A stretch of DNA of 64,000 nt, filler included, from Dugesia japonica (taxonomy: Eukaryota), in NCBI GenBank assembly GCA_001938525.1. It is 6 parts of 6 records of this genome, joined end to end, with 100 filler letters (N's around TTAATTAATTAA, not from the genome) between each part and the next. Parts side by side here need not be neighbours in the genome. Positions count along the whole stretch, not along the records: positions 1 to 8,447 come from MQRL01638990.1; 5 more parts are not named here. One strand, given 5' to 3'. Each line of letters opens with the position of its first letter. Position 1 is the first letter of the stretch. Of this stretch, positions 1 through 60,260 are shown in pieces. The position numbers and the translations under genes are program-made. Under the pieces are notes generated by a model. It was not told the DNA's origin and searched no databases. It was given only the letters and a program-made list of their open reading frames with translations.

Positions 1-619
1 TCGATTTGTTATCCAATATCAATAATTAAAACCTAAATTTTGATCTAAGCTTTTATATTAAATGAATTATTCAACATAATTTTAGAAAAAATCAAATACG
101 TTAAATACATTTTTAATTGTCTAAACTATTGTATCGATCGTTAAGTTAAACATGAAATATCTTTGGTCTAATTATATTAATATTCTGTTATTTAATTTAT
201 ACTATAATGAACTTATTGACAAATCAGATAAACAATTACATCATTGTGCAATAATTCTGGATAGATATAGATGATTGATAGTTCCAGAGTTGTTATCTAC
301 TTAGAGATATTAATGACAGTAATTAATAGTATAATATCAATATTGTAATTACCAGTAGTAGCTAGAAAATTAATATTAATTAAATACAATATTTTATACT
401 NNNNNNNNNNNNNNNNNNNNNNNNNNNNNNNNNNNNNNNNNNNNNNNNNNNNNNNNNNNNNNNNNNNNNNNNNNNNNNNNNNNNNNNNNNNNNNNNNNNN
501 NNNNNNNNNNNNNNNNNNNNNNNNNNNNNNNNNNNNNNNAATCAATAAAAATAATCAATAGAAGAAATAAGTATCAAAATAAATAAAGTTAATCAAAAGT
601 ATATTTTATATAAAAAATA

Positions 620-690
620 AATAACGCCATTTAAAATAAAACTTTATTGTTATATATATCGACGGATAAACCGTCATCAACAGACAAAAT
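620..690 (-). ncRNA. Degenerate HHR-bearing PLE terminal fragment
   Basis: Minus strand TTGT-CTGtTGA-T-GACG(GTTTATC)CGTC-GAtA-TATA-TA|ACAA, two core substitutions, followed by the same ATGGCGTT tail seen at ~2349. Confidence 0.55.
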
Positions 691-1598
691 AAAAAAATCA
701 GTTTATTCAATTTATATTATTTAAACAAAGATTGATGCGATTATAACTGAATTTAAGATGGCTATAATTCTTAACTTTTAATTTTAACAATTTTTCAATA
801 AAATATTTTCTTCTATAATAATATTTTATTAAAATTACTGTTTTACACCTAAACAATTTTTAGTTTTATTTTATATCAAAATTTTCTTTCTTTAAAATTT
901 ATTCAAATCCTATATTCTTGTAATATTAAAAAAAATAAAGTAGTTAAATATGCACAAACGTCATTTATGTGTTCATGATAAATTATAAATATAATAAATT
1001 TAGTGATTTAATAAAAAATAACCGCACTATAAATGTATTCAATTTAATGTTTATTAAATTAATAACGGACAAAATGAAAATCTAATTTTATTTCTAGTGT
1101 CGACTGTACCCGTCTAGAAGAATTTGATAATTTCTCTAACTGATTGAAATATTTATANNNNNNNNNNNNNNNNNNNNNNNNNNNNNNNNNNNNNNNNNNN
1201 NNNNNNNNNNNNNNNNNNNNNNNNNNATTCTAAAATCTAAAATTAACGTTTTCCATGAGAAATCAAAATTTTAGTAATAATTGCGTGCTAATAGAATGCA
1301 TAAAATTTACAAAATTATCTAATTAATCATTAATTTTATAATATTTCCTAATGTTATTGTGAACGGTATGATCATTTATTAGTTTTATTTATTTCTGTTC
1401 AGAATTTATTTTGTCCTTGCTTGACTCCTCAAAAAAGATAAATAATTTATTTATTTAAACAAAATAAATATTTTAAAAAATAGTCAAAAACGATTTGTTT
1501 AAGACAGTTTAAAACAATATAAAAACATTTATTTTCATAAAAAATATACTTTAATTAAAATTAAATAATTGAACGCCATTTTTTAAAATATTTATTTG

Positions 1599-1639
1599 TT
1601 GCGATCAATTTCGACAGAATAACTGTCATCATCAGGTAA
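1599..1639 (-). ncRNA. Minimal type I hammerhead ribozyme (inverted-arm copy)
   Basis: Minus strand TTAC-CTGATGA-T-GACAG(TTATT)CTGTC-GAAA-TTGA-TC|GCAA. Perfect 5-bp helix II, one mismatch in helix I. Confidence 0.8.
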
Positions 1640-2287
1640 TTACAGAATATTAAAACAAACTATTTACAAAGTTTAAATGATTATATAATTTCAATTATGC
1701 ACTCACAATAAATAATCAATACAATAAATTGAAGAACGATGTTGAAATTGTCAACTGAACATTAATTTTAGGATTTAATGCTCTTATCAACAAAGCTTTA
1801 CACACCACTCTCTTCCAATAATTAATAAATTCACTTCACAAGATTTTAAAATCAGAAAACCCTATTGATTTTATAGATTTGGTTCGATGCTCAACAATAT
1901 TACTATTTCTACTATTTCGACCCCTCTAACTTTGTGCTTTGATCTGGTCAATCAATTTAAATGTAATGGATGTATCAACACACATTAAAGAGACTTACCG
2001 TCATCTCTGCACCAGAGTTCAAGAGCATAGTCGAAATAGTGGGAAAATGTATAAAATCAATAGGGTTTTTTTATTTTAAAATCTTGTGCAGTAGATTTAT
2101 TAATTATTAGGAGAGAGTGATGTGTAAAACTTTGTTGATAAGGGCACATTAAATCCTAAAATTAATGTTCAGTTAACAAATTCAACATCGCTCTTAAAAT
2201 TAATTTATTGATTATGTATTGAGATTACATAATTGATATTATATAATCATTTAAACTTTGTAAATTGTTTGTTTTAATATTCTTTAA

Positions 2288-2328
2288 TTGCCTGATGATG
2301 ACGATTATTCTGTCGAAATTGATCGCAA
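2288..2328 (+). ncRNA. Minimal type I hammerhead ribozyme, intact core
   Basis: TTGC-CTGATGA-T-GAC(GATTATTCT)GTC-GAAA-TTGA-TC|GCAA. Helix I TTGC/GCAA, helix II GAC/GTC, AUC cleavage triplet at 2322-2324. Confidence 0.85.
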
Positions 2329-3614
2329 CAAATAAATATTTTAAAAAATGGCGTTCTATTATTTATTTAAAAAATTACCATTATTTCTTGAGTTTTTAAT
2401 AATTTTAAATTATTTAAAATATTCAATATTCATACTTACCAAAAATATCACAATAAAATGAATCAAATATTTAAAATATAATGTCNCTTTAAATTTGTAA
2501 ACTTAATTTGCAATTTAATAATTCTATTTTTTCCAAAAATATTATCTAAAAAAATTAATATTTGAAATTTTTAAATCAATTGAAATGAAAAATATTAAAA
2601 CTCCAATTAATTTATTTATATTCTCCGGTGTAATTTTATAATTTTAGTTTATTTTATGCCAAAATAGTTTTACCTGAAAATATATATTTTGTCTATATAG
2701 AAAATCTTTAGTGGGACAATTATATATTTCTTTAATATTGTGATATTTAGTAAATAATGTTAAGAAATTTTTTATATTTATTTTGTCATTAGAAATTGCA
2801 AAGAAACATATCACATCCCATTTGGTTAGACATGTGTTTATAAGGTATGAATTGAATCAAATAAAATAATTCATTAACTAGTTGAAATGGAGACCGTAAT
2901 AATAATTATTTCTTAAATATTTAAATATTAAAATTAGTCTTTCTAATTGCTAAAAAATTTTACTTATAATCTTATCAGTTATATTGCTTTTCAAATTTAT
3001 GGTCAATAAATAAAGGTTAAGAGTAGATTATAAAAATATAAAATTACTATCGAAGCAAATTACATTTACAAAATAGTTAATTAAATGCAATACTAGATTT
3101 ATTTATTTTTTATTTAAATTAATTTATTGTCTGTTTTTTATTCATTCTTCAAAACTGCAAGTGTGGTTGTACCGAACATATTTAGTATCAATCAATTACT
3201 AAAATGTGGACAAATACTTTTCTGAAAATGAACAGCATAAAGCGGATATCACAGAAATTTCTATCCACACCACAACAACTGGTAACTCTCTATTGTTTGC
3301 TTTAGATTTAACCTTTAAGGAACGAGGGCTGAAACAAAACTTAGATTTAAACATTCATTCTTTTTTATCATTGAAATTGTTGATATATTTCTTGGACAAC
3401 CAGCATTTTTAAATGATTTTCAATATTAATTTCAATTATTTAAAGAATAATCATTTAAAATAATTCCATAATATATTATTACTAAATTGTTTTTAGAATC
3501 AAATATACAATTTATTAGTTCTTTCAATAGTTCTGAATTTTTACATTTCACAATTGTGAAATTAATTACAATCGCAGCAATGATATACTGAAACTATATT
3601 AATATTATGTCTAC

Positions 3615-4616: not shown

Positions 4617-5638
4617 GGCTAATTTCAGTTCTTTATCCAGATTTGTTTTAATTTATTATTTTAATTAACTTTAATATTTAATTTTTAAATTCATTTTATA
4701 TTTATTCATCAAATGTAAATGAAAAACAGTCCTCTTAAGTGTCATAATTAATTGATTTCTTGATTTCTTGACGTATTAACAGAAGAAAAAGCAGTGAATA
4801 AGATTTTATTTATTATTTCATATTTTCGATTATTATTGTACAACTCGTCTTTGAATGACATCCACTAAAGCCTCATTGTTACGATTCTTCAGAAATTCAA
4901 TAAAACATTATGTTGTTTGACCAATTTGAGACAGAGCAAGTTGAAATTCCTAATTGAAAAGAAGTTCTTTCAATGCTTATTTCACAACACCAACAATAAA
5001 TCATGAAAACCAAAGAACTATACATTGTGAAAAATAGTACAACTTGTTAATTTAAATAAAAGTTTCGATCAAAAGTTTTGTTTTTTTATTGATATTTGAT
5101 AACAATTCGATATTTCGAATTAGTCTTCTTCAGGAAAAAGTCACTTTCTGAAGAAGACTAAGTCAAAATATCGAATTCTTATCAAGTATAAATAAGAAAA
5201 CAAAAATTTTGATCGAAGCTTTTATTTAAATGAATTCTGAAAAACGATCAATGGTTATGTCCAACAATTATTCTCGCAATAATTGCAATTGTAAAACTTG
5301 TTAATGATGTTATTTTTCTACATTGTGTATTTGTACAACGGTGTTTGGATTGGTATTCCAATCTTTCAGTTCAACAGGCCATACAAATAAGTATTTCATT
5401 TAAAAGAAATTTATTTTGACACCATTTGATTGCAGGTTTTTCGACTTTTATTGTTTTGATTAAATTAAATATAGTCATGAATATCTAAAATATGAAATGA
5501 TTACATTATGTAAACAATCATTATTTACCGTTTATTGTTATCATAAAATAAAAAAATAAAATAAATTTAAAAAGTAGATCTTGAAGTTAATAAAAATAAT
5601 AAATTAAAACAAATCTGGATAAAGGACTGATGTTAACC
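4617..5638 (-). mobile_element. Merlin (IS1595-like) DNA transposon, deleted, with a nested HHR element
   Basis: TIRs GGCTAATTTCAGTTCTTTATCCAGATTTGTTTTAATTT (4617) and the inverse ending at 5638. Minus-strand remnant AIKWCQNKFLLNEILICMAC...HRCTNTQCRKITSL..TIF / IYCWCCEISIERTSFQLGISTCSVSNW resembles the Merlin zinc-ribbon N-terminus. Confidence 0.7.
5052..5294 (+). mobile_element. Non-coding HHR retroelement inserted as a fold-back, with 11-bp target-site duplication
   Basis: AACTTGTTAAT at 5041-5051 and 5295-5305. Inverted arms 5051-5134 / 5147-5230, each with a CTGAAGA-A-GAC..GAAA core. 3' hairpin CAATTATT-CTCGC-AATAATTG at 5265-5285. Confidence 0.85.
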
Positions 5639-6975: not shown

Positions 6976-7514
6976 TTAATGGCTTTTTTCTTGTTACATA
7001 ATAATCCAAAATGTTAATTAAAAATTCGACATTTCACACTTGACTTTTAAAAATTTATTTATTTTAAAATCATTGAAACCTAAATTATTTAAATATATAT
7101 ATAATTTTAATAATTTATATAATCAATTTACTCTTTATAAAATTGACTAAAATCCATTGTTTATAATTTGAGATTTAAAAATTAGTTTTTAATTGATTTA
7201 ATTTTAAAATATAATCGAATTTAAATGAAAAATAACAAATGAAAATTTACATGTAAATTTAAACCATTTTTGAAATTTATTTTCCAAATAATTCCAAAGT
7301 TAGAATATTTTAAAATATTATTTTCGACAATTAATNAAGTTAAATTTTTATGTTTTCACCATTTTTTCAACTCAAACGAAATTCAGCAACGATATAACAT
7401 GTAATATTTATATTTTAAATATATTTTTAACCATTAATTCGTAAATAACTAAATATTTTTGATGAATATAAATTTTTATTTAAATTTTTTTACAAAAAAG
7501 ATCAATATTGTTAT

Positions 7515-7725
7515 TCTTCTATTTTTATAGATTGTTCAATATGTCGGTTATGCCTTCCTCAGAAACTATTGTTCAATTAATTCTGTAATAAATTTCCAAA
7601 TACAACGAAAAAAGATTAATGTAAATTGTGTTTGTATTTGGAAATTTATATCAGAATTAATTGAACAACAGTTCCTGAAAAAAGATATAGCAGAAATATT
7701 GATCAAGCTATGGAAATAGAAGAAC
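7515..7725. mobile_element. Fold-back element with a degenerate HHR in each arm (third family)
   Basis: Arms ~7515-7605 and ~7633-7725 are inverted. Their consensus is GTTC-CTGAAGA-A-GGC(ATA)GCC-GAAA-TA-TT|GAAC. Confidence 0.6.
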
Positions 7726-8362
7726 GAATTTTTCTTTCTTGTAAAATATTTTAAATAAAACAGTTTTTCAAAAATAAAAATATTTAACCTAAAATTAATT
7801 TAATTGAATTTAATTAATTAAAACTTTTTTACGGTTACAAGCTAAAAATATAAAGTTAAATTATTCCACAGGGAATATTAATTATTAAAAATCAAATATA
7901 TCGAGCCTGTGTTCAATCAAATCAATAAATAATTCAATCTGACGCCTGGCGTTAGTAAATATTTTTAGAAAAGACTGAACAGATATTGTTTGGCAGGCAT
8001 AATATTTTGAACCAATGATTAGGATTGTTAATGATACCCAGTAGCAATATATTTCGACGAGTTAAAATATCATCAGCAAAATCAAATTCAACTATTTACT
8101 AAATTAATGAAAATTGCAACACCGGAGCTCCATACCGACAAATCTGATATTATCTCGTATTCTCTCGAGATGTTNNNNNNNNNNNNNNNNNNNNNNNNNN
8201 NNNNNNNNNNNNNNNNNNNNNNNNACAAATCTGATATTATCTCGTATTCTCTCGAGATGTTGCAACACATTATTAGGCACTAAATTTGTTACAATTTTGT
8301 TAAATTTTGCACAGAGATTTTTCACTTCTGTGCATGGTTTTATATAATTAAAAACATAAAAT

Positions 8363-9405: not shown

Positions 9406-11130
9406 TGAATCCACAACCATACATTATAGAAAAATTGGTAGTGCGACGTGTTTGTGTTGGTCAGTCGGTATGATTGGACATTGTCAAAGATTGGAACATC
9501 AAAATGCAGTATATCCTTTCCAATAAATATAAATTTTGCATTTTACAATTCCGAAAATTCGCATTGAGAATATAAAGATAATCTCTTTTCTGATGAAAGA
9601 TTACCAAAGTTTATTTTCATTGCTTTNNNNNNNNNNNNNNNNNNNNNNNNNNNNNNNNNNNNNNNNNNNNNNNNNNNNNNNNNNNNNNNNNNNNNNNNNN
9701 NNNNNNNNNNNNNNNNNNNNNNNNNNNNNNNNNNNNNNNNNNNNNNNNNNNNNNNNNNNNNNNNNNNNNNNNNNNNNNNNNNNNNNNNNNNNNNNNNNNN
9801 NNNNNNNNNNNNNNNNNNNNNNNNNNNNNNNNNNNNNATTACAATGAAGGAATTTAAAGATTCGTATACGTTTTTCACCTTTGTATTGGCTCCGGACTTT
9901 GCATTTGATCAACCGCAATTACCAAAACTAAAAATCTCAAGTTGGATGTGCGATTCCATAAAGCCTTGACGGAATCAGCGATAATGTATGTGTATGAAGT
10001 TTTTGATTTAGAAATTCAAATCATCAAGAATGGAATAGTGGTTGTATAAACAATACATACATGTATTTGTATTGCATAGCATGAAGTATNNNNNNNNNNN
10101 NNNNNNNNNNNNNNNNNNNNNNNNNNNNNNNNNNNNNNNTATTATACATCAAAAATATCAAAAAAATGACCATAAATTGGTTGAAGAAAAACAAATTTAA
10201 GTTCAAAATTTAGGAATGAATCCACAACCATACATTATAGAAAAAAAATTGGTAGTGCAACGTGTTTGTGTTGGTCAGTCGGTATGATTGGACATTGTCA
10301 AGGATTGGAACATAAAAATGTAATATATCCTTTCCAGAAAACATAAATTTTGCATTTTACAATTCCAAAAACTCACATTGAGAATATAAAGATAATCTCT
10401 TTTCTGATGAAAGATTACCAAAGTTTATTTTGATTGCTTTCCAATCGTCAAAACAATCAAGTTGTGATTATGGTTCATTTTGTTTAAAATTCTCAAATTT
10501 CGTTGTAACGTCCGTATGCATGGCGAGAAATGTCGATTATCGAGAAACATATACTACTAATTTTGATACTGACTATGCAATATGTTCAATCGATTATTCG
10601 TAATATGGTTCTATTAAATGTAGATCGAAACAATGGTATTACAATGAAAGAATTTAAAGATTCGTATACGTTTTTAACCTTTGTATTGTCTCCAGACTTT
10701 GCATTTGATCAACCGCAATTACCAAAAACCAAAAATCTCAAGTTGGACTCTTATATATAAGTAGGTAGATCCTAGCGCACATAAACACCCCCTCCCCCCC
10801 CCTCAAGGTCAATTTTTTCAAGGTCAAAGGGTTTATGTATACTTGATTGTGATTGGTGGAAAATTTTTNNNNNNNNNNNNNNNNNNNNNNNNNNNNNNNN
10901 NNNNNNNNNNNNNNNNNNATTACAATGAAGGAATTTAAAGATTCGTATACGTTTTTCACCTTTGTATTGGCTCCGGACTTTGCATTTGATCAACCGCAAT
11001 TACCAAAACTAAAAATCTCAAGTTGGATGTGCGATTCCATAAAGCCTTGACGGAATCAGCGATAATGTATGTGTATGAAGTTTTTGATTTAGAAATTCAA
11101 ATCATCAAGAATGGAATAGTGGTTGTATAA
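9406..11130 (+). pseudogene. Polinton/adintovirus major capsid protein, C-terminal half, in three partial copies
   Basis: NAVYPF..HFTIPK..DNLFSDERLPKFILIAFQ ... NGITMKEFKDSYTFFTFVLAPDF..QLPK..NLKLDVRFHKALTESAIMYVYEVFDLEIQIIKNGIVVV*. 9839-10089 and 10919-11170 look identical (probable assembly duplication); 10217-10747 is a diverged copy. Confidence 0.8.
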
Positions 11131-11161
11131 ACAATACATACATGTATTTGTATTGCATAGC

Positions 11162-11551
11162 ATGAAGTATNTATTGTTTTTTTATAAAGAGAAATTATTG
11201 ATTGATAGGACTTTTCCGATTGAAACAATATTGAAACGTGGTTTGGGCAGCAGGCGATTCAAAGAAGTGTATCCACTTAAACGATTACCGGACATGTTAC
11301 AAAACGGATGCTTTGTAATCATAACAGATACCTCGACTTTGGATGGTAAGCATTGTATTATCATTGATGTCAAACCAAATATTATTCGTTTATTTGATCC
11401 ANTGAGTATGTTTTATCCACTATTACTGGTAACTAAATTGGAGCGTATGTAACAGCTTGTCGAATACAATAAAACTGTGTATCAGAATCCATTGACGTTT
11501 CTATGTGAACAATATGATATTGAATAGCTCAAAGATCAGTATAAACAATGA
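11162..11551 (+). pseudogene. Adenain-like cysteine protease of a Polinton/adintovirus
   Basis: FKEVYPLKRLP..CFVIITDTSTLDGKHCII..RLFDP ... EYNKTVYQNPLTFLCEQY, i.e. the NTD..GxHW, FDxxG, Q and CG motifs in decayed form. Confidence 0.8.
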
Positions 11552-15280: not shown

Positions 15281-15433
15281 TTTTACAATTTCAATTATTG
15301 CGAGAATAATTGTTGGACGTAACCGTTGGTCGTATTTGAGATTGCATTAAAATAAAAGCATNGATCAAAATGTGTTTTTTTGGTTTTTGATAATAGTTCT
15401 ATATTTTGACTTTGAATTCGTTAGGAATTGACT
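15281..15433 (-). mobile_element. Copy of the non-coding HHR element (degenerate core, intact 3' hairpin)
   Basis: Reverse complement aligns end to end with 5140-5294 and 37251-37400. Confidence 0.8.
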
Positions 15434-15959
15434 TAATTAAATTATTTATTTAAAGTATAGAAGTGGTGTATCAAATTACAGCTTGAAAGTTTTTATAAAA
15501 ATTTTTAGAATTACAATTTTTTAAATTTATTTTTCTATTCTTAAATCAAGAAAAGTCAGAAATTCAGATAATATTTAAAATTATATTAAAAAAGATTTTA
15601 TGTTACTTATTCATGAGAATGATCATAGGTGTTAATATTGAATTGTTATTTATTATTATTAAAAGATTTATTTCATGACATAAAGCTTGTTTTTATTTAT
15701 TCTTTGGGAGCTCAATTCTACTTGTCGATTTTTCTGATTTGATTTGCTTTGAAATATAGTCAATATTGGACTGAATTTCTTTGAGAGTTTCAATGAATTG
15801 TTCATCAGAATTAGCATGTTTGGAAACCGCTACTTCGAAAACATCATTCAAAATCTCTTCAATATTTGACTGAATTTGACTGAACTCTTTTTAAGTATTC
15901 AATTGCCGTTCTCAGGCGCATAAACCATGTTTTTGTCCCCTTGCAATTTTTGATACTAA

Positions 15960-17399
15960 CTTTATCATTAATCCAGTCGAAGCTTTGAGATAAAGTTGGT
16001 ACCTTTATCCCTAGTCGTGATGAAGCAGCAATTATAAGAGACTCATGATTAATTGTTTTAGTATAGTCACAATCAGTAGTAAATAATCTAAAGAATTGTA
16101 CAATACTTTGACAATGGTAATCATCAAGAAGATCAATACACCCCGCTTCCCCATTTCTGTTGCTGTGTAAAAATAAGCAAATTCAGAATGATCAGGTACC
16201 GAAACGAATAGATAATGCACTCGTTTTGATTTCACGAGTTCTAAAAAGAAAAACAAGACGAGAATGCAAAAAAAGCTTTCAGTTTTTGCCAACCAAACAG
16301 TTTACAATTTGCCAGTTTTTCGGCATCAGTTATTAATTTTTGAATAGTATCATATGGTGTTTGATCATTACGATCTTTAACTGGAACACCAAGATATTGA
16401 TAAAATTCATTACTAAGTAGTTTTTTAATTTTTATATCATAAATGCTTATAACANTAGGAATGTTAATATTTGGAGATTGAATGTTAGCACATTTCTCCG
16501 GACGAAATTCCATATCAATAACTTTAGTTACTTCAATGACTTTATTTACAAGAGTTTGAAAATCATCAGTATTTTTTGCTATTAGAGCTATGTCATCAGC
16601 ATACACAAGTATCTGTATAGAAGAATTATTTATCATGAAAGGTGATATTTGACATGTTTTAGTAGCTTCAAGAACAGGATTTATAGCAATGGAACAGAGA
16701 ATCATAGATAGTGGACAACCTTGTTTAACACCTTTTTTAACTTTAATGTTGCTTGTGAGAATAGGACCTTTAGTAGTTAATTGTATTGGAGTAGCAGTTT
16801 TTAAGAATATTAACAAAATCATGACTCACTCCAATAACACGAAGAATAAATCACAAATATTCATGTGATACACTACCAAAAGCATCTTTTATGTCTAACC
16901 ATGCAATATTTACAGGATAGTTTGTCTTACTTCTTGAGTTTCCAAGTGCAGAAGATAATATAGAGTTGTGTTCAACGCAGTCTTGGTGTTCAGAACCTCC
17001 TTTTTGACCAATATGTAGGAGATTATTATANTTTGTCCAATCAGTTAATTTACGTGTCAAGACTGAAGCGAATAATTTGTAAATGACAGAAAGCAATGCA
17101 ATAGGTCTCCAAGATGAGATTTTATCATAATTACCTTCTTTATTTGGTTTTCGGATAAGAACAGTTTTGAACGATTTCCACTGTGATGGAATTTGACCAG
17201 TTAAGATAGTTTTGTTGAAAAAATGAGAAAGAAGCTTACTTTTATAATCTAATTTGGAAATATCTCTATATTAAATACCATTAATGCCCGTTGTAGTATT
17301 CTTTAAACGTCTAAGTTCATGTAAGATTTCGCCAGAAGAAAATAATTCAAGATTTAATGGAGTGTTCGAAGTTTTACAAAATGGTCTAATATTTTCCCA
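15960..17399 (-). pseudogene. Non-LTR retrotransposon reverse transcriptase (RLE type, NeSL/Utopia/R2-like)
   Basis: SSWRPIALLSVIYKLF, WLDIKDAFGSVSH, KGVKQGCPLSMIL, LVYADDIALIA, YQYLGVP, KLFGWQKL. Confidence 0.9.
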
Positions 17400-28847: not shown

Positions 28848-29340
28848 NNNNNNNNNNNNNNNNNNNNNNNNNNNNNNNNNNNNNNNNNNNNTTAATTAAT
28901 TAANNNNNNNNNNNNNNNNNNNNNNNNNNNNNNNNNNNNNNNNNNNNTATATATATATTTATATAGACAGATAGATAGATAGATATACGATATATTTAAA
29001 CGTATTCAAATTATTAAAAATTCTTTTATCTTTGACACAAATTTTAAAATAATTTACTGAAGATTTAATAACAATTTTATTTTTTTAATACCATCATATA
29101 AATTTATATAGAAAAACGTTAATAATAAAATTGTTTAAAATACATTTTTCTCTTGCTTATTTCTATACAAATATATAGATATACAATTTTTCTAATGTAG
29201 CTCCTAATAATATATTATATCTCTGTTTACTAAACGTCTGGCCACTCCTGATCTATATGACTGATAAAACATTATCGGGTGATTTAAATAAAATTTACAT
29301 CTATTATTGAAAAATAAAATAAATATTTAGATTATATTAT

Positions 29341-29432
29341 TTATAATTACAATTATTGTGAGAATAATTGTTGGACTTAACCATTGATCGTTTTTGAGCT
29401 TTCGTTAAAATAAAGAAAAAGCTTTGATCAAT
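29341..29432 (-). mobile_element. 3' half of the non-coding HHR element
   Basis: Hairpin at 29350-29370 and CGATCAATGGTTAAGTCCAA on the minus strand. Further tail-only copies at ~32958-33010 and ~37538-37605. Confidence 0.75.
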
Positions 29433-32860: not shown

Positions 32861-33729
32861 ATCATTTATTTTTACATAACATACAAAAATAAATTTAATA
32901 CCAATCACTATATTACTCCGTAAAAATTTTTAATTAAATTATAATTTTTAATTAAATCTCAAATGCGATCAATGGTTAAGTCCAACAATTATTCTCACAA
33001 TAATTGTAATTATTAAATTATAATTGATTTACTGATCGCAGATAACTGAAAATTGATATTTTAATTTTTTCAAAGAAAATAACCCAAAATGAACAAGAAT
33101 GGATCAGATGATAATTTAGAAAATTTAAAACGTGTATATTTGATGGTAAAACGAAAAAGAGATTATACGTTATGCTGAATAACATTATTGTATACATAGT
33201 GGAATTTTCTGTGATGTTTAAAATGCGCATCATTCGAAGACAGGTTTGTGATAAATTTCTGTTAAATTGTAAACGAGATTAAATTCGTGAATAATGAAAG
33301 CACGAAAAGCAATTCTGTCCATGTTGACTACTTTGTCCACTGATAACTAGAAAGTAATTTAATTTCCATAATGAAACTTTGCAATTTATAGAAAACATTG
33401 TTGTTAATTAAATTAACATAAAAAATCGATTGAAAAACGATATTCTTTATAGTTATTCCTGAAATTCTGCACTATTAAAAAATTAGCCCATTTCTTTTCA
33501 AATGACCTAACAAAATGTTTTCAAAAATCATCAATTGTAAATTTTTAATTGTACAACCGTATCATGTTTTTAACTTTGGTTTATTATTTTGATGTTAATT
33601 CTCGTGAAAATTCTACGAAAGCTTTTTCAAAAAGAAAACAATTTTAAATTCTAAATCTAATTGAAATTAAATTTTTTAGATTGACAGGTAATTTTAATCA
33701 AAGAATAAATAAAGTTAATAAAGAATTGA

Positions 33730-33862
33730 GTAACAAAGATTTATTGTTTTGAATTAATCAAGAAATCGTCATGTTCCTGAAAAAGACTATTGTCGAAAAT
33801 TTGAACCTTTTTACAAATACATTTTATTTTGATCTTTATTTTGTTCTTTATTTCAATGAAAT
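33730..33862 (+). mobile_element. Copy of the non-coding HHR element
   Basis: GTTC-CTGAAaA-A-GAC(TATT)GTC-GAAA-AT-TT|GAAC at 33774-33806. Upstream GTAACAAAGAT...TCAAGAA is shared with ~59270-59310. Confidence 0.75.
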
Positions 33863-35949
33863 AAAATTTTATTATTGTTTGATGAAAACCAAAGGATTTT
33901 ACAAATATATTTTTCATATGAATGAAGTAGCGATTTGAATGTATTTTGTTAAAAATTAATTAACTAACTAATTTTAAAAAATAAGGTAAAATACATATGG
34001 AAATTGATGAAAATGTATGTAAAAATATGTAATACTTTGAAAATAAAATATGAGTATAAAATAAAATTAAACTGTTAAAAGTTTAATTAGTTTTATCTAC
34101 ATCTATAATTAAAATGTGTGTAACTATGTGTGTGCTTGGTATGTATTATTTGTTCTAACCTTTTTCTATAATATGATCACTTATTAAACTTTAAGTAAGT
34201 TTTTTATGCAAATAAATCTATTTTACTTATATTATAAGCCGCCAATAAGAATACAATACATTACTATAAGGTTAGTATTTTATTGCAATTTGTCAGTTAT
34301 TAAACTTTTAACCAAATTGAAAATAAAAGAATTTAGTTGAAGCAAATAAATGGATTTAATAATTGGAAACATAAATTAAAAAGAAAAAAATTTATAAAAC
34401 TCCTTAAAAATTTGAAAGTGCTTTAAAAAACTCTGGTTGTACATTCATTGGAAAAATGGAAACTAAAATTAGAATTAAATGGAGATGGAAATTTTAAAAG
34501 ATGATGGAAATTTTGGTTTTAATTTCGTTTAAATTATCAAAATAATAACAATTGAGATTTCATTAAATCAATAGCTTCGAGCAAAACATTGATTGGTTTT
34601 TTAGAAATTTCTTTTTGGTAGTTATCCGAATTTCTTACTATTTTCTTCTTTAGAAATTTAGCTTTTTAAGTGATTCAACTCAAAATTTACAAATTTCTTT
34701 CATGTTGTTGAAATTTTATTGGATAATTTATTTTAATATATTTAAGTTTATTTAATTATTATAAATTATACTGATTTTAGGTTTATCCTCTCTGATTAAT
34801 GTTTCTTCCTGTGAAGTGTGGAAATGGAGTCTGTTCCTAATGTTTTCCATGTTATGTGATTGTTGGGACTGAATCACCTAAAATAATCATTGAAAAAGTA
34901 AAAGGGATAAAATCACATGATAATTAGGTTATAATATTCAACAAACCCGAAATAAGAATAAAGAATAAATTGCAAAGAAAATATAAACGAATTATATTAA
35001 ATGAAAATCGATAAGAAATTAAAGATGTTGCAATAAATCAATTTCAATTGTGATCAATACCGATGAATTACGAACAATAAAAACGATAATCAAATTATTA
35101 AACGAATTAATAATTAAATCAATAGATTTTGGCAAAATAAAAACATAATTTGCATTAAATCTAAATAAAATATCAACAATAAGATTCATTTTTTTTACTT
35201 ATTCCAACCAATCAAAACTTCAAATTATTCCAAAAAGGGTATAAATACCCAGGTAAAACTCAAAAAAATTTAAGTGAAAAAACTAAGATCAATCCGAATT
35301 CCATTTATTCAAAAGTCCGGACCCAATCCAAGTGGAAAATGAGAATCTTCGGAACTCATGAGGAAATTTAAATCGATATTACCATCCAGATACCAGCAAC
35401 CCGCCAAATTATTTATTCAAAGTCCGGGTAAAAAAGGTTCCAAGAAACTTATTCAAGTATTTCTCGAAATTCAGCATATCAATCCTCGAGTGAATAATAT
35501 GCGAATAAATAAGTATACGAAACTAATTCTCTTAAAAATCTCGTTGAAAACTTGCGATAATTTTTTTTTCATTTGAGAACCGAATTAATAACAATAATGG
35601 ATGTGATTCAATTTTATCAACCAATAAAAATGTCTATGATCATGAAGTTTATTTTGATTTATTCAGAGTGTGAGTATTGGAGATCAATTCAGAGCTTCTA
35701 TCGCTCTGATAATAAAAATTAACTTAAAGTAAATCGGTGCGCACATGCACTTCTGTAAGGAGTCGTCCACGTTGTCGAGAAATACAGTCCAAGGAAAATC
35801 AGGTAAATCATGGATAGGTGTGGATAATTACTCAAAGTCAACAACAACTTTTAAAAAAATAATCAAAAAATCATAAATTGCTTTGGAACCACAAATGTTT
35901 TGTCCTGCTTTCTGTAATTGAATGGCTGATGGCATTTTCGTTTTGACTT

Positions 35950-37166: not shown

Positions 37167-37250
37167 TTTTGCATGATTTAGCTACATTTCTCATTTAATA
37201 AAAGGTCATTTAATTATTGTGTTTGTTTTAGTATTTGGATATAATTTTAA

Positions 37251-37400
37251 AAAGTCAATTCCGAACAAAAACTAAGTCAAAAATTCCAAATATTATCAAA
37301 AACAAAAAAATATTTGATAGAAGCTTTTATTTAAATGAAATCTGAAAAACGATGAATGGTTATGTCCAACAATTATTCTCGCAATAATTGTAACTGTAAA
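37251..37400 (+). mobile_element. Copy of the non-coding HHR element (degenerate core, intact hairpin 37370-37390)
   Basis: Colinear with 5140-5294. Confidence 0.8.
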
Positions 37401-40092
37401 ATATAATTTTATATATATATATAATTGGAATGATCCAGGTTAAAAGAATTAGAGATGAGAGATTATTCTCAAATGAAGAAATGAAATTCCTAAATAACGG
37501 CTATCCAAATAAAGTCATATTTAATGAAAATTAATCAAATGAATTCTCAAATGCGATCAATGTTTAAGCACAACAATTATTCTCATAATAATTATAATTG
37601 TAAAATAATAATGGAATTTATGAAAAATCAAAATATTTTGTAAGTCTGGCTTCAGTAAAAATAATTTTTCTCCTAAACCATCTTCGTTGTCAAGTATTCT
37701 TTATGGTAATTTGTTTAGAAAAACCTTGAAAATAAAATACTTGAAAATCACAATCGGAAAAATTAATATTACCTATCTATCTATCTTAACAATTATAAAC
37801 ATAAATAATAATTATTATATTAACATCAAAAAGATTATATAAATGAATGTTACTAAATATTTTTTGAAAAAATTTACAGAAAATTCAAATTAGAAAACAG
37901 AATTTCATCGACACACTATGATTTCCAACCACTGATTTTATAAATATTTTCTTAGTCACATTTGCAATTTCATTTAACAAGAAAATGACTTTTCGGTTGA
38001 CAAATGATGCTCTCATTTTGACAGATGAATCGTAATAATTGCATCACGAAATTTATAGAGAGATTGTAAAGTTAATTAATATTTATGATTTCTTTTATTT
38101 GAAATTAGCCAAAAAAGTCAATCGGGAAACTCGATACAAATATAATTGAAAATAAAGCTGCATATTTTCCATTTATGATTATCATATAATGGTTATTTCC
38201 CCAATATTTTGTAAATTTGTTCAAATTAATAAATCAAAAATACTATTATTTTTGTGATTTCTATTTCACATCAATTAAAATTCATTTCAGCGTAGTATTA
38301 GTTTGTCTGTATGCACTTTTATATTAAATTGATTTTGGGTTGCTATATATCCAGGTATGACTTTAAACACTCGCTCCAAGAGTTTTCTTTTTACTGATGT
38401 CCATGACCATAAGAAAGAACTAATTCTGATTTTATTTGATATTATGCAGATTGATCGACTTTCCAGTACTTTCCGATCAAGTGAATTCCTTGAAAAAATT
38501 AAAAAATAATCTTTATTGAAAATTGTTTCTTTGTTTGAAATAGAAAGGTTATTCACATTACAGTTCAATTGGCAGGTGATAATAGTTTCCTTCCGAAAAA
38601 TTATTTATTTATTGAAGAATTATTGTAATGGTTTCTGATTAAAAAATTTATTTTGTCCAATAAAAAGAAATCGATGGGATATGTGGGGCCCCCAAAATAT
38701 AATAAAATTACGATGGTGTGTAATAGATGAATAATATACCGTGTAAGTGTGCAATTGAATTGAAATAAAATACTAATTACACTGGTGTGCAAATGGAGCA
38801 GAAAAAATTCTAGTTTTGATAAGTAATTGGACATAGATAGATCAATTCAATCGGGTTGCCAAGGGGTTTCTAATCGCGCTCTGTGCTTGTTCCAGATTAA
38901 TATACAGTTAACGCTAGTTTTTATTAGTTTATGTAAATTATGAATTATACTGTAATCGATGAATTTTAGTAACTAATGATAACATAACTTTCATTATATG
39001 AATTATTTTTGCTTAGTAATGAATTTAACTATTGGTTATATTTATAATTAAACAATGATAAGTTAATGGCAATTTGCTAATAATATTGATTAATAGTTAA
39101 CATGGTTAATTAAAATTTTGTAGTAATGAATCATTGTAGTAATGTTTAAATTAGTTTTTCATTAATTGTAATTCATAATGATCTATAATAATGATAATAA
39201 TAACGAGGAAACAATAAAAATACATCTCCTTATTTTTTAAAGTAACCAGTAATAAATAACATCTCGGTAGTAACTTTTGATTTGTTAAAGACGACAATAA
39301 TAAACATAATATTAATAGCGATAATTATAAGAGATAGTACTGATAACAAATGAATGGTTAATGATGGGTAAAAGTGATAATAATTAATGGCCATGACGAT
39401 ACATAATGGGAATAACAATAGGGATAATAAGGCTAATAATGTTAACGTATAAGAAACATAATTGGTATGACTTGATGTCGACATTAGTACGAATCTACAA
39501 TAATAAAAATAATGATAATAATAATAAGGATAGTAAGGAAATATGAAATAAAGGCTAAATTATTCATCCATCTTGCATTCCTCTCGAAGTTTAAAATCAA
39601 CAATAATAGCTGCAACAAGATATTAATATATACATCATACAATACTAGTCACTCTGATCAAAAGGCTTACAAAATTTTATGTCGATCCTAAATGAGTATT
39701 ATTGAAGTGTGAACCAAAAGAATGCAAGCATGCACTCGAATTATGGATTACGAGTCACTGGCTTCATTCTGAAGATCTAAAACGGGACTCTAGATTTAAT
39801 TCTTCACGTGGTTTTACTAAGCCATGACACCCTAGATATAACTTAAATTTTGAACTGTTTAGATGTAACCCCAACAATATCAATTTCTAAATTCTTCCTC
39901 ACATAGACAATACTTTGTATTTCTAGCAAAACATGGGTTTGAATAATTAACTATTGGTTTAAAAGATCGAGTATTTATTAAACATGTTTAGGTTATTTTT
40001 TCATATTTTGTTAGTCTTTTAGTTTATTAAATGGATTAAATAATCCATTTCTCTATTTACTTATAATTTAATTTTTTATTATTCATTAACAC

Positions 40093-40282
40093 AAAAGCTT
40101 CGATCAAAATTTGTTTCTGATAATAATTCTAATTTTCGACTTTGTCTTCGTCAGGAATTGACATTTATCAAAAGTCAATTCCTGGCGAAGACAAAGGTGA
40201 AAATTAGAATTATTATCAAAAATAAAAAAAACAAATTTTTATCGAAGTTTTTATTTTAATGAATTCTGAAAATCGATCAATG
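40093..40282. mobile_element. Fold-back copy of the HHR element
   Basis: Arms ~40093-40162 and ~40174-40250 are inverted; the 3' tail is truncated after GATCAATG. Confidence 0.85.
40125..40159 (-). ncRNA. Ultra-minimal HHR, intact core (35 nt)
   Basis: Minus strand AATTC-CTGACGA-A-GAC(AAA)GTC-GAAA-AT-TA|GAATT with a perfect 5-bp helix I. Confidence 0.8.
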
Positions 40283-42042
40283 ATCAGGATAATTTTTTTA
40301 TTACTTATATTTAGTAATAATCTATTGCTTGCCACTGAAGTCTAATTTTCAGAATATATTTTAATATATTTAGGTTATCGACCAATATCATAATAATCTT
40401 AATAATAATCAATATCATTATTGTGAAAGATACCTCATTGCAGACAATTTTTGGATTGGGTGTTAATTTTATTGTTATTGTGTAAATATTAGTAGGATTA
40501 AAGTAATTTTAAAAAGAAAGACTTTTAAAATAGTGTTTGTCGTGGAACATAGTTCTGGTAAACATGAAATTTGTAAGTCTCTTTTGATTTGTTATTAATT
40601 AGAATTTTTTGAATCGGAAAAAAATTGTAATTACTTTTCATTAATTTTTCTAATTCTTGTAATAGTAAGTGTTAATAAATTTGGTAAATAACTCACGTAG
40701 AACTGTAATTTTTATATCTTGATTACATTGAATTAATCTTTTTATAAAAATTAGTTTTATGAAATTTTCCGTTATCAATTTATATAGTAACAATAAATTT
40801 ATCGATTTTAATTGGTCTTATTTCATTCAAGTTGTATTCATTATTTTTCAAATGAATAACGTAAATGAAAAATATCGACATAAATATAACATCTCTAACA
40901 ATTATAATTATAAAAAATATAATCAATAAAATAGTTTTTCCTTTGATTAAATTTAGTTATTTCAAAGTAATGTTATTTTCTCTATATATATTATTCAAAT
41001 TTTATACATTTTAAATCAGTGACGGAATAAACGATATTTAAAATATTTCCTCCGCCCGGAGGTAGAAAATAAACTTGTGATTTTAAAATAAAATAAATTT
41101 GTAGTAGCATTTTCACTAAATGTTTTATAACATTTAAATTTTTAATGTTTTGTTTGAATATAAGAAACTATTTAAATTTTTGAACCTTAATATGAACAGT
41201 TTAAAAGATGTAATTAGCAAATTATAAGGACCTCTTAGAATACATTATTTTATTTTTAGGAAATAAGAGTTTGCTTGTAAGTCATTTATTGTGTAAGCAT
41301 TGCATTCAAACGTAGAACAAGTAAGAGCCTCTAGATATATTTTTAATTATGTTTGGAAATCTTTAAATAAACGATGCGGTAAATAAAAAAAACAATAAAA
41401 TCAATGAGAATAAGTTTAACTTGAGTAATACGCAATTAAGCTTAATTAATTGCGTTATGTTATTTTCGTGTTTTTATAAAAACCATTAATGTCTCAAATA
41501 CATTAGAAATAATTGATTGTGCTTCGAAAACAAAAATGAGATTTTACGATATGATTAGAAGCTTGGGAGGAAAGAAATAATACAGTTGTCATTTTGGAGG
41601 AAAAAATACACTTGATTTGTTATTTACCTGCTACTAATAAATAATTTTAAGAAAGAAAAATTTTAATATTTCCTAATTTAGCTTTTGTTCAAAATATAAA
41701 TAAGGTTGCACTATTCGTATACCATTAAGATGTTATGATTTTTTTTTGTTGTTTTCATAAATTACATATTGCAATTTTTCATGTTTTTTAAAACTTTATA
41801 TTTAGAGTAATTCTTTTATTTTTTTTAAAATCTAGGTCTGTAACTGAACATGTCTACTCATTGTAGTTCTTTCTATTGTTTTTCTAGTTAATTCAATTAT
41901 CTCAGTAGTTTTGCTTGTTGCTATTCATAATAATTACAGTTAATATTTATTAAAATAAATTCAAATAGATATTTAGAAGTCTTGTAAAATTTGTATAATA
42001 TTATCACTTTTAATAACTTTTTAAATAAAATTTTTTTCTTAC

Positions 42043-43399: not shown

Positions 43400-43492
43400 T
43401 CCTGAAGAAGACTATTGTCGAAAATTTGAACCTTTTTTTACAAATAAATTTTGTTTGGTTTTGATCGAAGCCTTATCTTATTTTAATGAAAC
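43400..43492 (+). mobile_element. Copy of the HHR element with intact catalytic core
   Basis: TC-CTGAAGA-A-GAC(TATT)GTC-GAAA-AT-TT|GAAC; the 5' side is lost in the gap. Confidence 0.75.
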
Positions 43493-44750
43493 CTTCTAAG
43501 GAATTAATTAATTACGATTGAAAGTACACTCCCGAGTTTGCCTCTGTCAAATAAGTCTTAGTTTGCTAAAATTTACAAGGCAAGATAATAAGTAATATTC
43601 CGTGTATGAACTAAACAATTTGTGAAAGAGCCGAAGCCGAGGAGTCGTAAGAGCCATGTGTTGTCGATCACTGATCTAGTTGATCGACTTTTATTCAATT
43701 GTCTTTAAACAAAATGCTTTGTTGAAATAGCCGATTGTTGTTACGTAAGTAACATGCTTCAAGTTCGACAGTTCTACACACTATCCAATAATATTTTGTC
43801 ACCGAGCTTAATTAATCTTATCTTTTTCTACATTTCCTTTCTCTTATATGTCAAACCATGAGGATAAATAAACATTTCAAATTCCTCTACATGAAAACTG
43901 TAGTTATGTGCAAAAGTGTGAGAACTGTTCTTCTCGGTCTAATCTCTGAATAACAGTTTTGTATCTAATTTCATAGGAGAATGTGCAAACTCTTCGAGTC
44001 TGAACTCTCAGTTTAATCTCTGCCAAATATTTTTAAAAATACTTTTTTGTCCCCATTATAACTAAATATATATATATATGTTTTTATAATTATAACACGT
44101 TAATTAAATAAGATAGATAATATGATGTAAAGCAGAGGTGTCAAACTCGCGGCCCGGCCAATATATCGGCACTCAATAATATATACACACACATATATAA
44201 ATAAAAAACCGATGCAGAATAAAAACAAGATAGGAAGAATTTTTTTGCTNNNNNNNNNNNNNNNNNNNNNNNNNNNNNNNNNNNNNNNNNNNNNNNNNNT
44301 AGGTAACTACGGTAGTTAAGCAGGAATAATATCTAAAATATGTCAAATTTAGATTACTGATTTTTTGACAGATTAAACATTTTGAAATAATTTTCAAAAA
44401 ATACAAACAAAATGCTTTAAGAAAAGTTAATTAAATGGCCAACTGTTAAATAATTAACAGTGATNNNNNNNNNNNNNNNNNNNNNNNNNNNNNNNNNNNN
44501 NNNNNNNNNNNNNNNNNNNNNNNNNNNNNNNNNNNNNNNNNNNNNNNNNNNNNNNNNNNNNNNNNNNNNNNNNNNNNNNNNNNNNNNNNNNNNNNNNNNN
44601 NNNNNNNNNNNNNNNNNNNNNNNNNNNNNNCAGAATAAATAAAACGCTAATTGACAGATGCATTAAGACGTTGGACGTTAAATATAAACATATAACGAGA
44701 AATTGGTTTGTTGGTATCATCGACAGTAATTATAGACTTCAATATTATTT

Positions 44751-57849: not shown

Positions 57850-60260
57850 ATTTTCAATCTAGATAAAAAAAATGATCCGATTAAAATTATTTTAATCCAA
57901 AAAATTTTAGAAAAAAACTTTCACAAAAAATACTAGCACAAAAATTCTAGCACAATCGTAATCTATTATCAAACAAACATTTCAGTTCCAGTATTCACGG
58001 TACCAGGCAATTCGGTAACATGGAAACATAATTTAATAGGCTATTTAACATGATTAAATCTTTAAAAATTCAAATCTGAAAAAGTCGCAAAAGTTATTAT
58101 TTATTATTCGGTAATATGGAAATATTTGATGTAACAAGTTTATTTACTAATGTTCCATAAAGAGAAAATTGATTTGTGTTGTGAAATATGGAGTGAGTTT
58201 TATCCTAAAAAATTTTTAATGATAAAGCCTTTCGAGACCTTTTAACTTTTGTAACATTGAATGTTCAATTTTTTATTAATGATGAATGATATAGACAAGT
58301 TGATGGCGTGGCCATGTCTAAATGAGAGAGTTAGATTAATGATTATTATTCTGTTAAACCTTTAGTTTACAATTAATTAATTGAGATAAAAAATAATTTT
58401 GAGAGTTAATTTAAAATTAAAATTCATAATTAAAATGAACTAATAAAATTTCGATAAAATCTGAAGAATTATGTAACATGGATCTGTTGTGTTGATTCTA
58501 CCAAGAAGCCATCATTTTTCTGAAGAAGACTTTTGTCGAAAATTTGTATTTTTATACAAATATACTTTATTTTTGATCAAAGTCTTTTCTTTATTTTGAT
58601 GAAATCTTTGGTTTTTTCTTGTTTTTGAAAATCTCTCCAAGTACATAGCTTTTTTCGAGTATATGACTAGCTTGCATCCAAATATAGGCTTTACGGTTGG
58701 AGATTCAACTATTCCGTTTATTAATATAATACTTTTTGAAAGAAAGAATAACTTCTTGGAAACAGAAATATATAGAAAGAATACTGATACCGGTTTGTTT
58801 ACAAATCCTACCAATTTTTGTGTCAAAAAATTTAAAGTAATATGATTAAAGGATTTCATAAAAATAAATAAAACCTCGATCAAAATAAAATAAATTTTTA
58901 AAAAAATTCTAATTTTCGACAAAAGTCTTCTTTAAAATTTATTTCCATTTGCAAAGATCAAAACGATGTAAATCTTCTAAATTATTAATTTTCATTAGTC
59001 ACTACTTATACAAATTCTTTATAGTTTATCAAAATTTTTTTGGTTTATAAATTTTAATTTTAAATTAACTCAAATTAACTCTTAAACTTGTTTAATTAAA
59101 TCAAAAAATCTTGTAAATGTTTAATTATTAATAATTCTTCAACTAATAATAAAATATTTAAAAGATTTTTTGATTTAATTAAAAAAGTTTAAGAGTTAAT
59201 TTGAGTTAATTTAAAATTAAAAATAAAATTTATAAACCAATAAAATTGTGATAAAATAGAAACCATTTTGTAACAAAGATCTATTGTCGTTTGGAATATA
59301 TCAAGAAGTCATCATTTTCCTGAAGAAGACTATTGTCGAGAATTGAAATTTCAATAAAAATACATTTTATTTTGATCGAAGCTTTTTCTTTATTTTAATG
59401 AAATCTCAAATGCGATCAATGGTTAATTTCCCCACAATTATTCTCGCAATTATATAAATGCGTAAAGGACTAATTCATCGTTCTTGGGACCTCTCTTCTA
59501 CTTTAATCAATACAAACAAGAATCTGAATAAATTAATTGATTTTCTTTATAAAAATGGGTATTCTAAATTTTATATTAGTATTTAAACTTTGAATAAACT
59601 AAATTGTGATTTCTCTTGTGCTGACGTGTCTGTGATTGTGGTTAAATTGTTTTATCATTACCTTATTCTTGAGGCTTTAAAAACTTTAAAATTCTATTAA
59701 AAATGGTCTTAAGGATATTTTAAATATAGAAGTTGTATTTCAATCTCACAAAGTTATAAATATGTTCCATAATAAGCCTATAACCTCTTTAGGATTGTGT
59801 TCTGATCTGATCTATCAATTTAAACGTAATGGGTGTAATGCTACATACATTGGAGAGACTTCCCATCATCTCTGTACTATATTTCAAGAGCATAGTTGAA
59901 ATAATTGAAATAGTAATATTGTTGAGCATCGAAGAGTATGTATAAAATCAATAGGATTTTCTGATTTTAAGATCTTGTGCACTAGATTTAATAATCAACG
60001 GGATACAGTGATGTGTGAAGCTTTGTTGTTAAGAGCATTTAATCCTAAAATTAATGTTCAGTTGATGGATTCATTAAAATGAATGGATTCTTAAAATTAT
60101 TTTATTAATTATGTATTAGATTGCATAATTGACGTTATATAATCATTGAAATTTTAAACGATAGTGTATTTAATGATTTGCCTAATGATGACGGTTTTTC
60201 GTCGAAAAAAGATTTTATTAAATAGCTTTCTTTTATTTTTATAAAAAAGCTGCCAATGTT
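57850..60260 (+). mobile_element. Decayed Penelope-like element (RT + GIY-YIG + HHR tail) with nested HHR elements
   Basis: FDVTSLFTNVP (58125), YRQVDGVAM, LHPNIGFT...ETEIYRKNTDTGL, DLIYQFKRNGCNATYIGET (59804), CEALLLRAFNPKINVQ; degenerate HHR TTGC-CTaATGA-T-GACG..CGTC-GAAA at 60178-60207. Confidence 0.88.
58400..59452. mobile_element. Long versions of the HHR element: one direct copy (~58400-58606) and one fold-back (~58853-59452)
   Basis: Cores at 58520 (+), ~58908-58932 (-) and 59320 (+). ~58853-59125 is inverted against ~59155-59405; hairpin tail at 59435. Confidence 0.8.

What the first reader, a model, noticed from the sequence alone, without database searches (positions are those of the whole stretch)
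5041..5305. Abundant non-coding retroelement built from a hammerhead plus a conserved 3' hairpin
Seen: about a dozen fragments across five of the six joined sequences. Cores lie near 5110(-), 5148, 15400(-), 33778, 37260, 40125(-), 40182, 43402, 58520, 58910(-), 59320; the hairpin CAATTATT-CTCRC-AATAATTG (or close variant) at 5265, 15292(-), 29350(-), 32986, 37370, 37574, 59435. Layout: HHR, A-rich linker, TTTTGATCGAAGC, CGATCAATGGTTA, hairpin. Copies share the 3' end and vary at the 5' end, and this copy has an 11-bp TSD. Inference: a retrozyme/SINE-like parasite of PLE reverse transcriptase, with the hairpin as a possible RT recognition signal. I do not recognise it as a named family.
Basis: partly seen in the sequence, partly recalled or inferred. 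Interest (0 to 1): 0.8.

Follow-up and report, generated by a model that had tools for sequence, protein, structure and literature searches.

The report
Penelope retrotransposon terminal-repeat fragments
The repeat is real, but it is most likely the scattered, decayed end pieces of an ordinary Penelope-type jumping gene, whose ribozyme, optional 3' tail and back-to-back copies are already described, rather than a new kind of RNA parasite.

Summary
The repeat is real: 16 fragments (13 insertions) in 5 of 6 joined scaffolds, a minimal type I hammerhead, and an 11-bp TSD at the finding's copy. The claim that copies share one 3' end is wrong. Eight stop about 55-60 nt short of the hairpin, seven reach it and one is intermediate. 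In all three head-to-head pairs the inverted arm is the short one. This is the known optional 'tail' of Penelope-like elements (PLEs), which marks two RT start sites. One copy runs upstream through a 154-nt UTR into PCLNERVRLMIIILLNL*, which ranks directly behind three verified PLE endonuclease C-termini among 2,643 window sites. A tail-only copy adjoins a thumb-like piece. The hairpin block reads as 22 open codons from an ATG. No head-to-tail arrays exist, so it is not a retrozyme. The RT/GIY-YIG remnant at 58.1-60.1 kb belongs to a second PLE family that this one interrupts twice. Still open: subfamily A1 always starts just upstream of the ribozyme and could be a non-autonomous solo-pLTR unit. 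The full ORF was not found.

The parts
5041..5051 (+). Left copy of 11-bp target-site duplication
5047..5137 (-). Inverted, short-ended pLTR arm (A1); HHR core starts 5133, stem II broken; stops at the ATG position, no tail
5136..5294 (+). Forward, long-ended pLTR arm (A1): HHR core from 5148 (G12 mutated), predicted cut 5172/5173, A-rich leader, ATG 5230, tail
5230..5295 (+). 'Tail': 22 open codons from ATG, probable ORF N-terminus (inferred)
   Evidence: analogy
5265..5285 (+). 8-bp hairpin, -2.7 kcal/mol; putative long RT start site (inferred)
5295..5305 (+). Right copy of TSD
9..69 (+). Short-ended A1 fragment cut by window start
15281..15434 (-). Long-ended A1 solo copy
29340..29432 (-). 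3'-only long-ended copy
32946..33013 (+). Tail-only insertion with 14-bp TSD (32933/33012)
33721..33862 (+). Short-ended A2 copy with part of the 3' UTR
34552..34658 (-). Decayed short-ended A1 copy
37250..37400 (+). Long-ended A1 solo copy with 11-bp TSD (37239/37401)
37424..37531 (+). RT-thumb-like piece (FLNNGYP) joined to the tail-only copy that follows; suggestive only
   Evidence: no database hit
37533..37604 (+). Tail-only copy
40075..40288 (.). Head-to-head A1 pair; minus arm (core 40154) is the only intact minimal HHR; short / intermediate ends
43400..43494 (+). Short-ended A2 copy cut by scaffold edge
58312..58365 (+). Probable C-terminus and stop of family A's own GIY-YIG ORF (PCLNERVRLMIIILLNL*)
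58366..58607 (+). A2 3' UTR (154 nt), HHR core 58520, short end
58849..59456 (.). Head-to-head A2 pair with 3' UTR on both arms; inverted arm short, forward arm long
58125..60079 (+). Host element: decayed RT-thumb-GIY-YIG ORF of a different PLE (family B), interrupted by the two A2 insertions; not part of family A

Best explanation
The fragments are pseudo-LTR (pLTR) remnants of an unnamed, endonuclease-bearing Penelope-like retrotransposon family with two subfamilies, A1 and A2. SHOWN in sequence: layout of 3' UTR, minimal type I HHR, A-rich leader, ATG, about 60-nt optional tail with hairpin; two classes of 3' end; head-to-head pairs; TSDs; one copy reaching a probable ORF stop. INFERRED from the Anolis PLE: the RT-GIY-YIG protein binds the RNA just inside its own ORF, nicks AT-rich DNA and starts cDNA internally at one of two sites, the hairpin end (long) or near the ATG (short). 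It copies backwards through an uncleaved hammerhead into the upstream repeat. Most events stop after 70-350 nt, leaving solo pLTRs; events primed on both strands leave an inverted short arm against a long arm, as at 5041-5305. The copies are dead on arrival and have since decayed to about 61-91% pairwise identity. The HHR has a palindromic 4-nt helix III, so it could cut only as a dimer or with protein help.
For: Two-class 3' ends, 8 short / 7 long / 1 intermediate of 16 (BLASTN ends agree). [quoted passage not shown] C-terminus at 58312 ranks 4 of 2,643 proline-start sites, behind only the three verified family-B C-termini, needs no frameshift, and resembles the ends of P0029 and P0047. It is followed at once by the UTR shared with other A2 copies (77.7% over 238 nt). 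Thumb-like piece ranks 2 of 935 stop-free 36-aa windows. Tail has no indel in 6 of 7 long copies and spans 22 codons; Adineta Pen2a pLTR plus tail also covers 22 aa. The HHR has the extra base between positions 9 and 10.1, a G10.1-C11.1 pair and palindromic helix III (AATT or ATAT), as in PLE min-HHRs. TSDs of 11, 14 and 11 bp in 3 of 11 testable insertions. Insertion flanks average 82% AT vs 72% for the window. A verified PLE with the same ORF-UTR-HHR order lies in the same window.
Against: No full or long ORF of family A is in the window; the adjacent RT/EN is family B's. Both ORF remnants are short. The C-terminus was missed by an HMM and ranks only 12th on its head motif alone. The thumb piece scored 12.1 bits against a shuffled-window maximum of 12.0 and found no database relative. 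Differences between copies in the tail frame look mostly non-synonymous by eye, and 3 of the 6 indel-free copies carry stops, so there is no codon-level sign of selection. A1 copies share nothing upstream of about 13 nt before the HHR core. The tail (55-60 nt) is longer than the 30-40 bp described. 8 of 11 insertions show no exact TSD of 11 bp or more. HHR stems show no covariation above shuffles.
Confidence: 0.78

Rival explanations
1. A2 is ordinary pLTR debris, but A1 (the finding's subfamily) is a self-propagating non-autonomous unit of about 155 nt: a solo pLTR transcribed from just upstream of the HHR and copied in trans by a PLE protein from the hairpin to the RNA 5' end.
For: All 5 testable A1 insertions begin within roughly 9-16 nt upstream of the core on the forward or solo arm and share nothing further up, whereas A2 copies run 55-205 nt further. 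The 37250-37400 copy is a clean TSD-bounded unit. Non-autonomous PLE derivatives are known (MRC1; retrozymes from pLTRs).
Against: pLTRs with defined lengths and solo pLTRs are described for autonomous families. The same fixed start would arise from short cDNAs run off the 5' end of an autonomous element's mRNA. A1 keeps the ATG-led frame. A1 copies are 74-88% identical to each other, with no young burst.
Confidence: 0.15
2. A classical non-LTR retrozyme: head-to-tail repeats self-cleaved into circular RNA and reinserted by rolling-circle RT.
For: HHR-bearing, low-GC, TSDs longer than 4 bp, unit within the 150-450 bp range.
Against: 0 head-to-tail units among 16 fragments. Sequence upstream of 3 of 3 solo A1 copies does not match the tail beyond chance. 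The HHR is minimal, not canonical. No HHR-bearing copy starts at the predicted cut site.
Confidence: 0.04
3. A Helitron/Helentron-type non-autonomous DNA element defined by its 3' hairpin (features recalled, not from a call).
For: Conserved subterminal hairpin near the long 3' end.
Against: TSDs of 11-14 bp, a hammerhead, variable 5' truncation with inversions, a PLE-like ORF end, and half the copies lack the hairpin.
Confidence: 0.02

Closest known systems
Poseidon PLE of Anolis carolinensis (PAc; PMC11167929)
   Same: HHR in the pLTR near the ORF start; RT starts in a stem-loop inside the ORF at two sites that delimit the optional tail; AT-rich targets; uncleaved RNA is the main template.
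   Different: PAc's ORF starts in HHR stem II and RT starts 111-118 nt into it. Here the putative ATG lies about 58 nt past the cut, the long end about 66 nt into the frame, and the two ends are about 55-60 nt apart. No activity shown here.
Adineta vaga Penelope families Pen1-Pen6 (PMC3846280)
   Same: Inverted pLTR adjoining a direct one, optional tail on one arm, pLTR plus tail covering 22 aa of the ORF, 8-10 bp TSDs, solo pLTRs, microhomology junctions, one Penelope inserted into another.
   Different: Those have full ORFs on record and a 31-bp tail; here only ends were recovered.
Minimal type I HHRs of metazoan PLEs (PMC4209133)
   Same: Extra nucleotide between 9 and 10.1, G10.1-C11.1, palindromic helix III, short helix I; mostly single copies or opposite-strand pairs 100-700 bp apart; several families per genome.
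   Different: Helix II here is 3 bp, shorter than the 7-8 bp Schistosoma motifs. Four motif strings were not found in the 2 supplement files searched; 1 file was not searchable.
Non-LTR retrozymes (PMC7229834; bioRxiv 10.64898/2026.07.22.740005)
   Same: Type I HHR, short, low GC, related to PLE pLTRs.
   Different: Defined by tandem repeats and canonical HHRs; neither is present here.
Non-autonomous Chlamys elements such as MRC1 (PMC8557442)
   Same: Non-autonomous derivatives sharing 3' ends with autonomous PLEs; the model for rival 1.
   Different: Often multicopy head-to-tail, and the Chlamys clade mostly lacks canonical HHRs.

Membership tests
EN+ Penelope-like element (pLTR remnant) | Minimal type I HHR in the terminal repeat | tested here: met
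   against the features; intact in 1 of 12 arms, recognisable in the rest
EN+ Penelope-like element (pLTR remnant) | Inverted 5'-truncated copy adjacent head-to-head | tested here: met
   3 pairs among 13 insertions
EN+ Penelope-like element (pLTR remnant) | Optional 3' tail, often on one end only | tested here: met
   8 short / 7 long / 1 intermediate of 16; inverted arm short in 3 of 3; longer than the 30-40 bp described
EN+ Penelope-like element (pLTR remnant) | Short variable TSD | tested here: met
   11, 14, 11 bp in 3 of 11 testable insertions; null 2% for 11 bp or more
EN+ Penelope-like element (pLTR remnant) | GIY-YIG ORF end directly upstream of the repeat | tested here: inconclusive
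   A2: 17-aa C-terminus ranks 4 of 2,643 but was missed by an HMM; A1: none reaches upstream
EN+ Penelope-like element (pLTR remnant) | pLTR plus tail overlaps the ORF start | tested here: inconclusive
   22-codon ATG-led frame, indel-free in 6 of 7, but no synonymous bias and no read-through copy
EN+ Penelope-like element (pLTR remnant) | Own full-length RT plus GIY-YIG ORF | not testable with these tools
   Host genome not available; the ORF next to A copies is family B's
Non-LTR retrozyme | Head-to-tail tandem units of 150-450 bp, each with an HHR | tested here: not met
   definition
Non-LTR retrozyme | Canonical type I HHR (helix I 6 bp, helix II 4 bp, loop contacts) | tested here: not met
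   helix II 3 bp, helix I 3-5 bp; no Rfam hammerhead hit
Non-LTR retrozyme | Expressed as monomeric circular RNA | not testable with these tools
   needs RNA data
SINE (features recalled) | tRNA/5S/7SL-derived Pol III head | tested here: not met
   ARAGORN 0 genes; Rfam no gathering-score hit
A named Repbase/Dfam family | Sequence match to a curated consensus | not testable with these tools

The most novel reading that the evidence does not exclude
A1 is a self-propagating solo-pLTR retroelement of about 155 nt: not tandem, no Pol III head, bounded by its RNA 5' end and the PLE internal RT start site. The TSD-bounded tail-only insertion (32946-33013) and the short/long asymmetry of inverted pairs would be genomic footprints of a dimeric PLE enzyme starting at two sites at once, one per target strand.
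Probability: 0.15. Interest if true: 0.45.

Novelty: new member of a known kind. Interest (0 to 1): 0.17.

Why it matters
As read here it matters little: it is one more PLE family in a genome that holds at least four HHR-bearing repeat families within 64 kb. Its value is as a clean in-genome illustration of the two-start-site model of PLE reverse transcription, with short ends, long ends, tail-only inserts and asymmetric inverted pairs. If A1 proved to spread on its own as a non-tandem solo pLTR, it would show an intermediate between PLE ends and retrozymes and define a minimal cis-acting cassette for PLE-driven insertion.

Tried and rejected
Rfam found nothing at gathering score; at low stringency only generic hairpin (miRNA-type) matches caused by the inverted repeat, no hammerhead family. 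An exact 26-nt hairpin pattern in GTDB genomes gave 0 hits. Word-indexed protein search with the 74-aa RT piece gave none; the profile search found 111 hits. The thumb-like piece gave no relative in the Atlas or the protein set. My first idea that the RT/EN at 58-60 kb is family A's own was rejected: its five pieces map colinearly to single proteins once A is removed, and it ends in a different UTR and HHR. A circular A1 monomer (tail joined to the 5' start) was rejected: 0 of 3 upstream flanks match the tail beyond chance. Covariation in HHR stems is not above shuffles; 81% of cells pair vs 16-48% when slid (one search used a wrong stem I register and is disregarded). Whole-unit folding z = 0.43, so no global structure. 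The two-strand fold of the intact HHR did not return the full hammerhead, only stem II and an intermolecular helix III. A splice acceptor or Inr at the A1 5' start was considered by eye and left unsupported. Viral and metagenome contig collections, the host genome, Dfam and Repbase stayed unchecked. Supplements were searched only for short motifs; unsearched files could list this family.

Full report
Setting. The window is six scaffolds joined by N-TTAATTAATTAA-N spacers, about 28% GC overall, and rich in mobile-element remnants: Gypsy-type gag and RNase H, a non-LTR RT, a polB-type ORF and a DDE transposase. I infer an AT-rich animal genome and did not determine the species.

The repeat is real. 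BLASTN with 5030-5315 finds the listed copies. The hairpin pattern has 6 matches and the HHR core 5, against 0 in 100 shuffles each. A profile gives 17 of 29 hits above the shuffled maximum; one belongs to another family and was dropped, leaving 16 fragments from 13 insertions in 5 of 6 scaffolds, about 2.8% of non-N bases (14 of the 16 were in the training set). Two subfamilies are visible, A1 (including the finding's copy) and A2. The finding's locus is a head-to-head pair, 5047-5137(-) against 5136-5294(+), inside an 11-bp TSD.

The ribozyme. It parses as a minimal type I hammerhead: stem I of 3-5 bp, CUGANGA plus one extra base, a 3-bp stem II closed by G-C, GAA, a palindromic 4-nt helix III (AATT or ATAT), and the cut base. 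These are the features listed for PLE min-HHRs, which also occur mostly as single copies or opposite-strand pairs (PMC4209133; I read parts 1-2 of 4). A strict descriptor passes 1 of 12 arms of this family, plus one family-B motif, and nothing in 100 shuffled windows. Both arms at the finding's locus are damaged. Stem pairing is 81% against 16-48% when slid, but covariation does not exceed shuffles. Rfam has no match.

The 3' ends are not shared. Eight fragments stop near the ATG position, seven run on 55-60 nt through the hairpin, and one is intermediate. In 3 of 3 inverted pairs the inverted arm is short. Two fragments are tail-only and begin about where short copies end; one has a 14-bp TSD. 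PLE insertions are described as often having an inverted 5'-truncated copy and a 30-40 bp tail at one end only (PMC8557442; passages). In the Anolis element the tail is the stretch between two RT start sites in a stem-loop inside the ORF, and uncleaved RNA is the main template (PMC11167929; parts 1-2 of 4). In keeping with that, no HHR-bearing copy here starts at the predicted cut. The tail reads as 22 codons from an ATG with no indel in 6 of 7 long copies; in Adineta Pen2a the pLTR plus tail also covers 22 aa (PMC3846280; section 6 and passages). Against a coding role: differences between copies look mostly non-synonymous, and 3 of those 6 copies have stops.

Links to an ORF. At 58125-60079 lies a decayed RT-thumb-GIY-YIG element. 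Its endonuclease piece finds P0001 and P0002 (E 7e-34 and 1e-28), its RT piece finds 111 proteins, and P0001 carries RVT_1 and GIY-YIG matches. Its five pieces map in order onto single proteins, and it ends in a different UTR and HHR, so it is a second family (B) that A2 interrupts twice. It is therefore not family A's ORF. The first A2 insertion, however, begins with PCLNERVRLMIIILLNL* at 58312-58365, followed by a 154-nt UTR shared with other A2 copies and then the HHR. A score built from 17 PLE C-termini ranks this site 4 of 2,643, behind only the three family-B C-termini. An HMM missed it, and the test was designed after I saw the motif. At 37424-37531 a thumb-like piece adjoining a tail-only copy ranks 2 of 935, but its HMM score only equals the shuffled maximum and it has no database relative. 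Each is modest evidence alone; both sit where the PLE model predicts.

Mechanism. Shown: layout, end classes, inversions, TSDs, AT-rich flanks (82% vs 72%). Inferred: a PLE RT-endonuclease nicks AT-rich DNA and starts cDNA internally at the hairpin or near the ATG. It copies back through the ribozyme and usually stops early, and priming on both strands yields short-against-long inverted pairs. The hairpin is weak (-2.7 kcal/mol) and its stem is near-invariant, so its role as a recognition site rests on analogy. Confidence 0.78.

Rivals. Retrozymes are defined by tandem units with canonical HHRs (PMC7229834, passages; bioRxiv 10.64898/2026.07.22.740005, parts 1 and 3 of 5). There is no head-to-tail unit here, and the tail does not reappear upstream of solo copies. 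There is no tRNA head. What remains open is A1: its copies share nothing beyond about 13 nt upstream of the core, so it could be a non-autonomous solo pLTR (0.15). Fixed-length and solo pLTRs are, however, described for autonomous families.

Novelty. It works like the end of a Penelope-like element and meets four of seven PLE features tested or considered; two are inconclusive and one is untestable here. Whether the family is named could not be checked in Dfam or Repbase. Four motif strings gave one unrelated paper in full text and nothing in the supplement files searched (one file unsearchable). I did not see tail-only insertions described in the passages read; searches were seen as listings only, so this is not a claim of absence from print. 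Verdict: new member of a known kind, interest 0.17.

Noticed in passing
window 58125-60300: Family-B PLE (RT, thumb, GIY-YIG, UTR, decayed HHR near 60182) holds two A2 insertions within 1.6 kb (chance about 0.05). The first replaces about 38 codons with microhomology at both junctions; the second has an imperfect duplication of about 15 bp. Could be nested insertion or template switching between two PLE RNAs.
   Followed up: partly
window 1559-2399 and about 600-700(-): Head-to-head pair of 5'-truncated family-B copies with endonuclease remnants and HHRs at 1635(-) and 2292(+); a further B-like HHR fragment near 683(-).
   Followed up: partly
window 7474-7760: A third HHR family as a head-to-head inverted pair (cores near 7560(-) and 7675(+)); weakly hit by the family-A profile (12 bits).
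   Followed up: partly
window 8076(-): A fourth minimal-HHR-like motif, single copy.
   Followed up: no
window 16241-17270(-): Broken non-LTR reverse transcriptase (RVT_1).
   Followed up: no
window 18844-20054 and 28562-28891(-): polB-type and endonuclease-VII-like ORF pieces, Polinton/Maverick-like (label recalled; Pfam hits are below curated cut-offs; 20197-20327 matches 28453-28583).
   Followed up: no
window 26693-27868 and 55697-56026: Gypsy-type gag with zinc knuckles (391-aa open frame) and an RNase H piece.
   Followed up: no
window 36494-37039: DDE_3 transposase remnant.
   Followed up: no
window 17500-18098: Minisatellite with a 31-32 bp unit and higher-order 94/126 bp periods.
   Followed up: no
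window 41921-42439(-): 172-aa frame with a claudin-like GLW-x-C look (recalled; no Pfam hit); a weak family-A-like stretch at 42365-42405 lies inside it, below the noise threshold.
   Followed up: no
window 8138-8261, 9838-11170, 44827-45016, 48287-49388: Near-identical direct duplications either side of N gaps, probably scaffolding artefacts.
   Followed up: no
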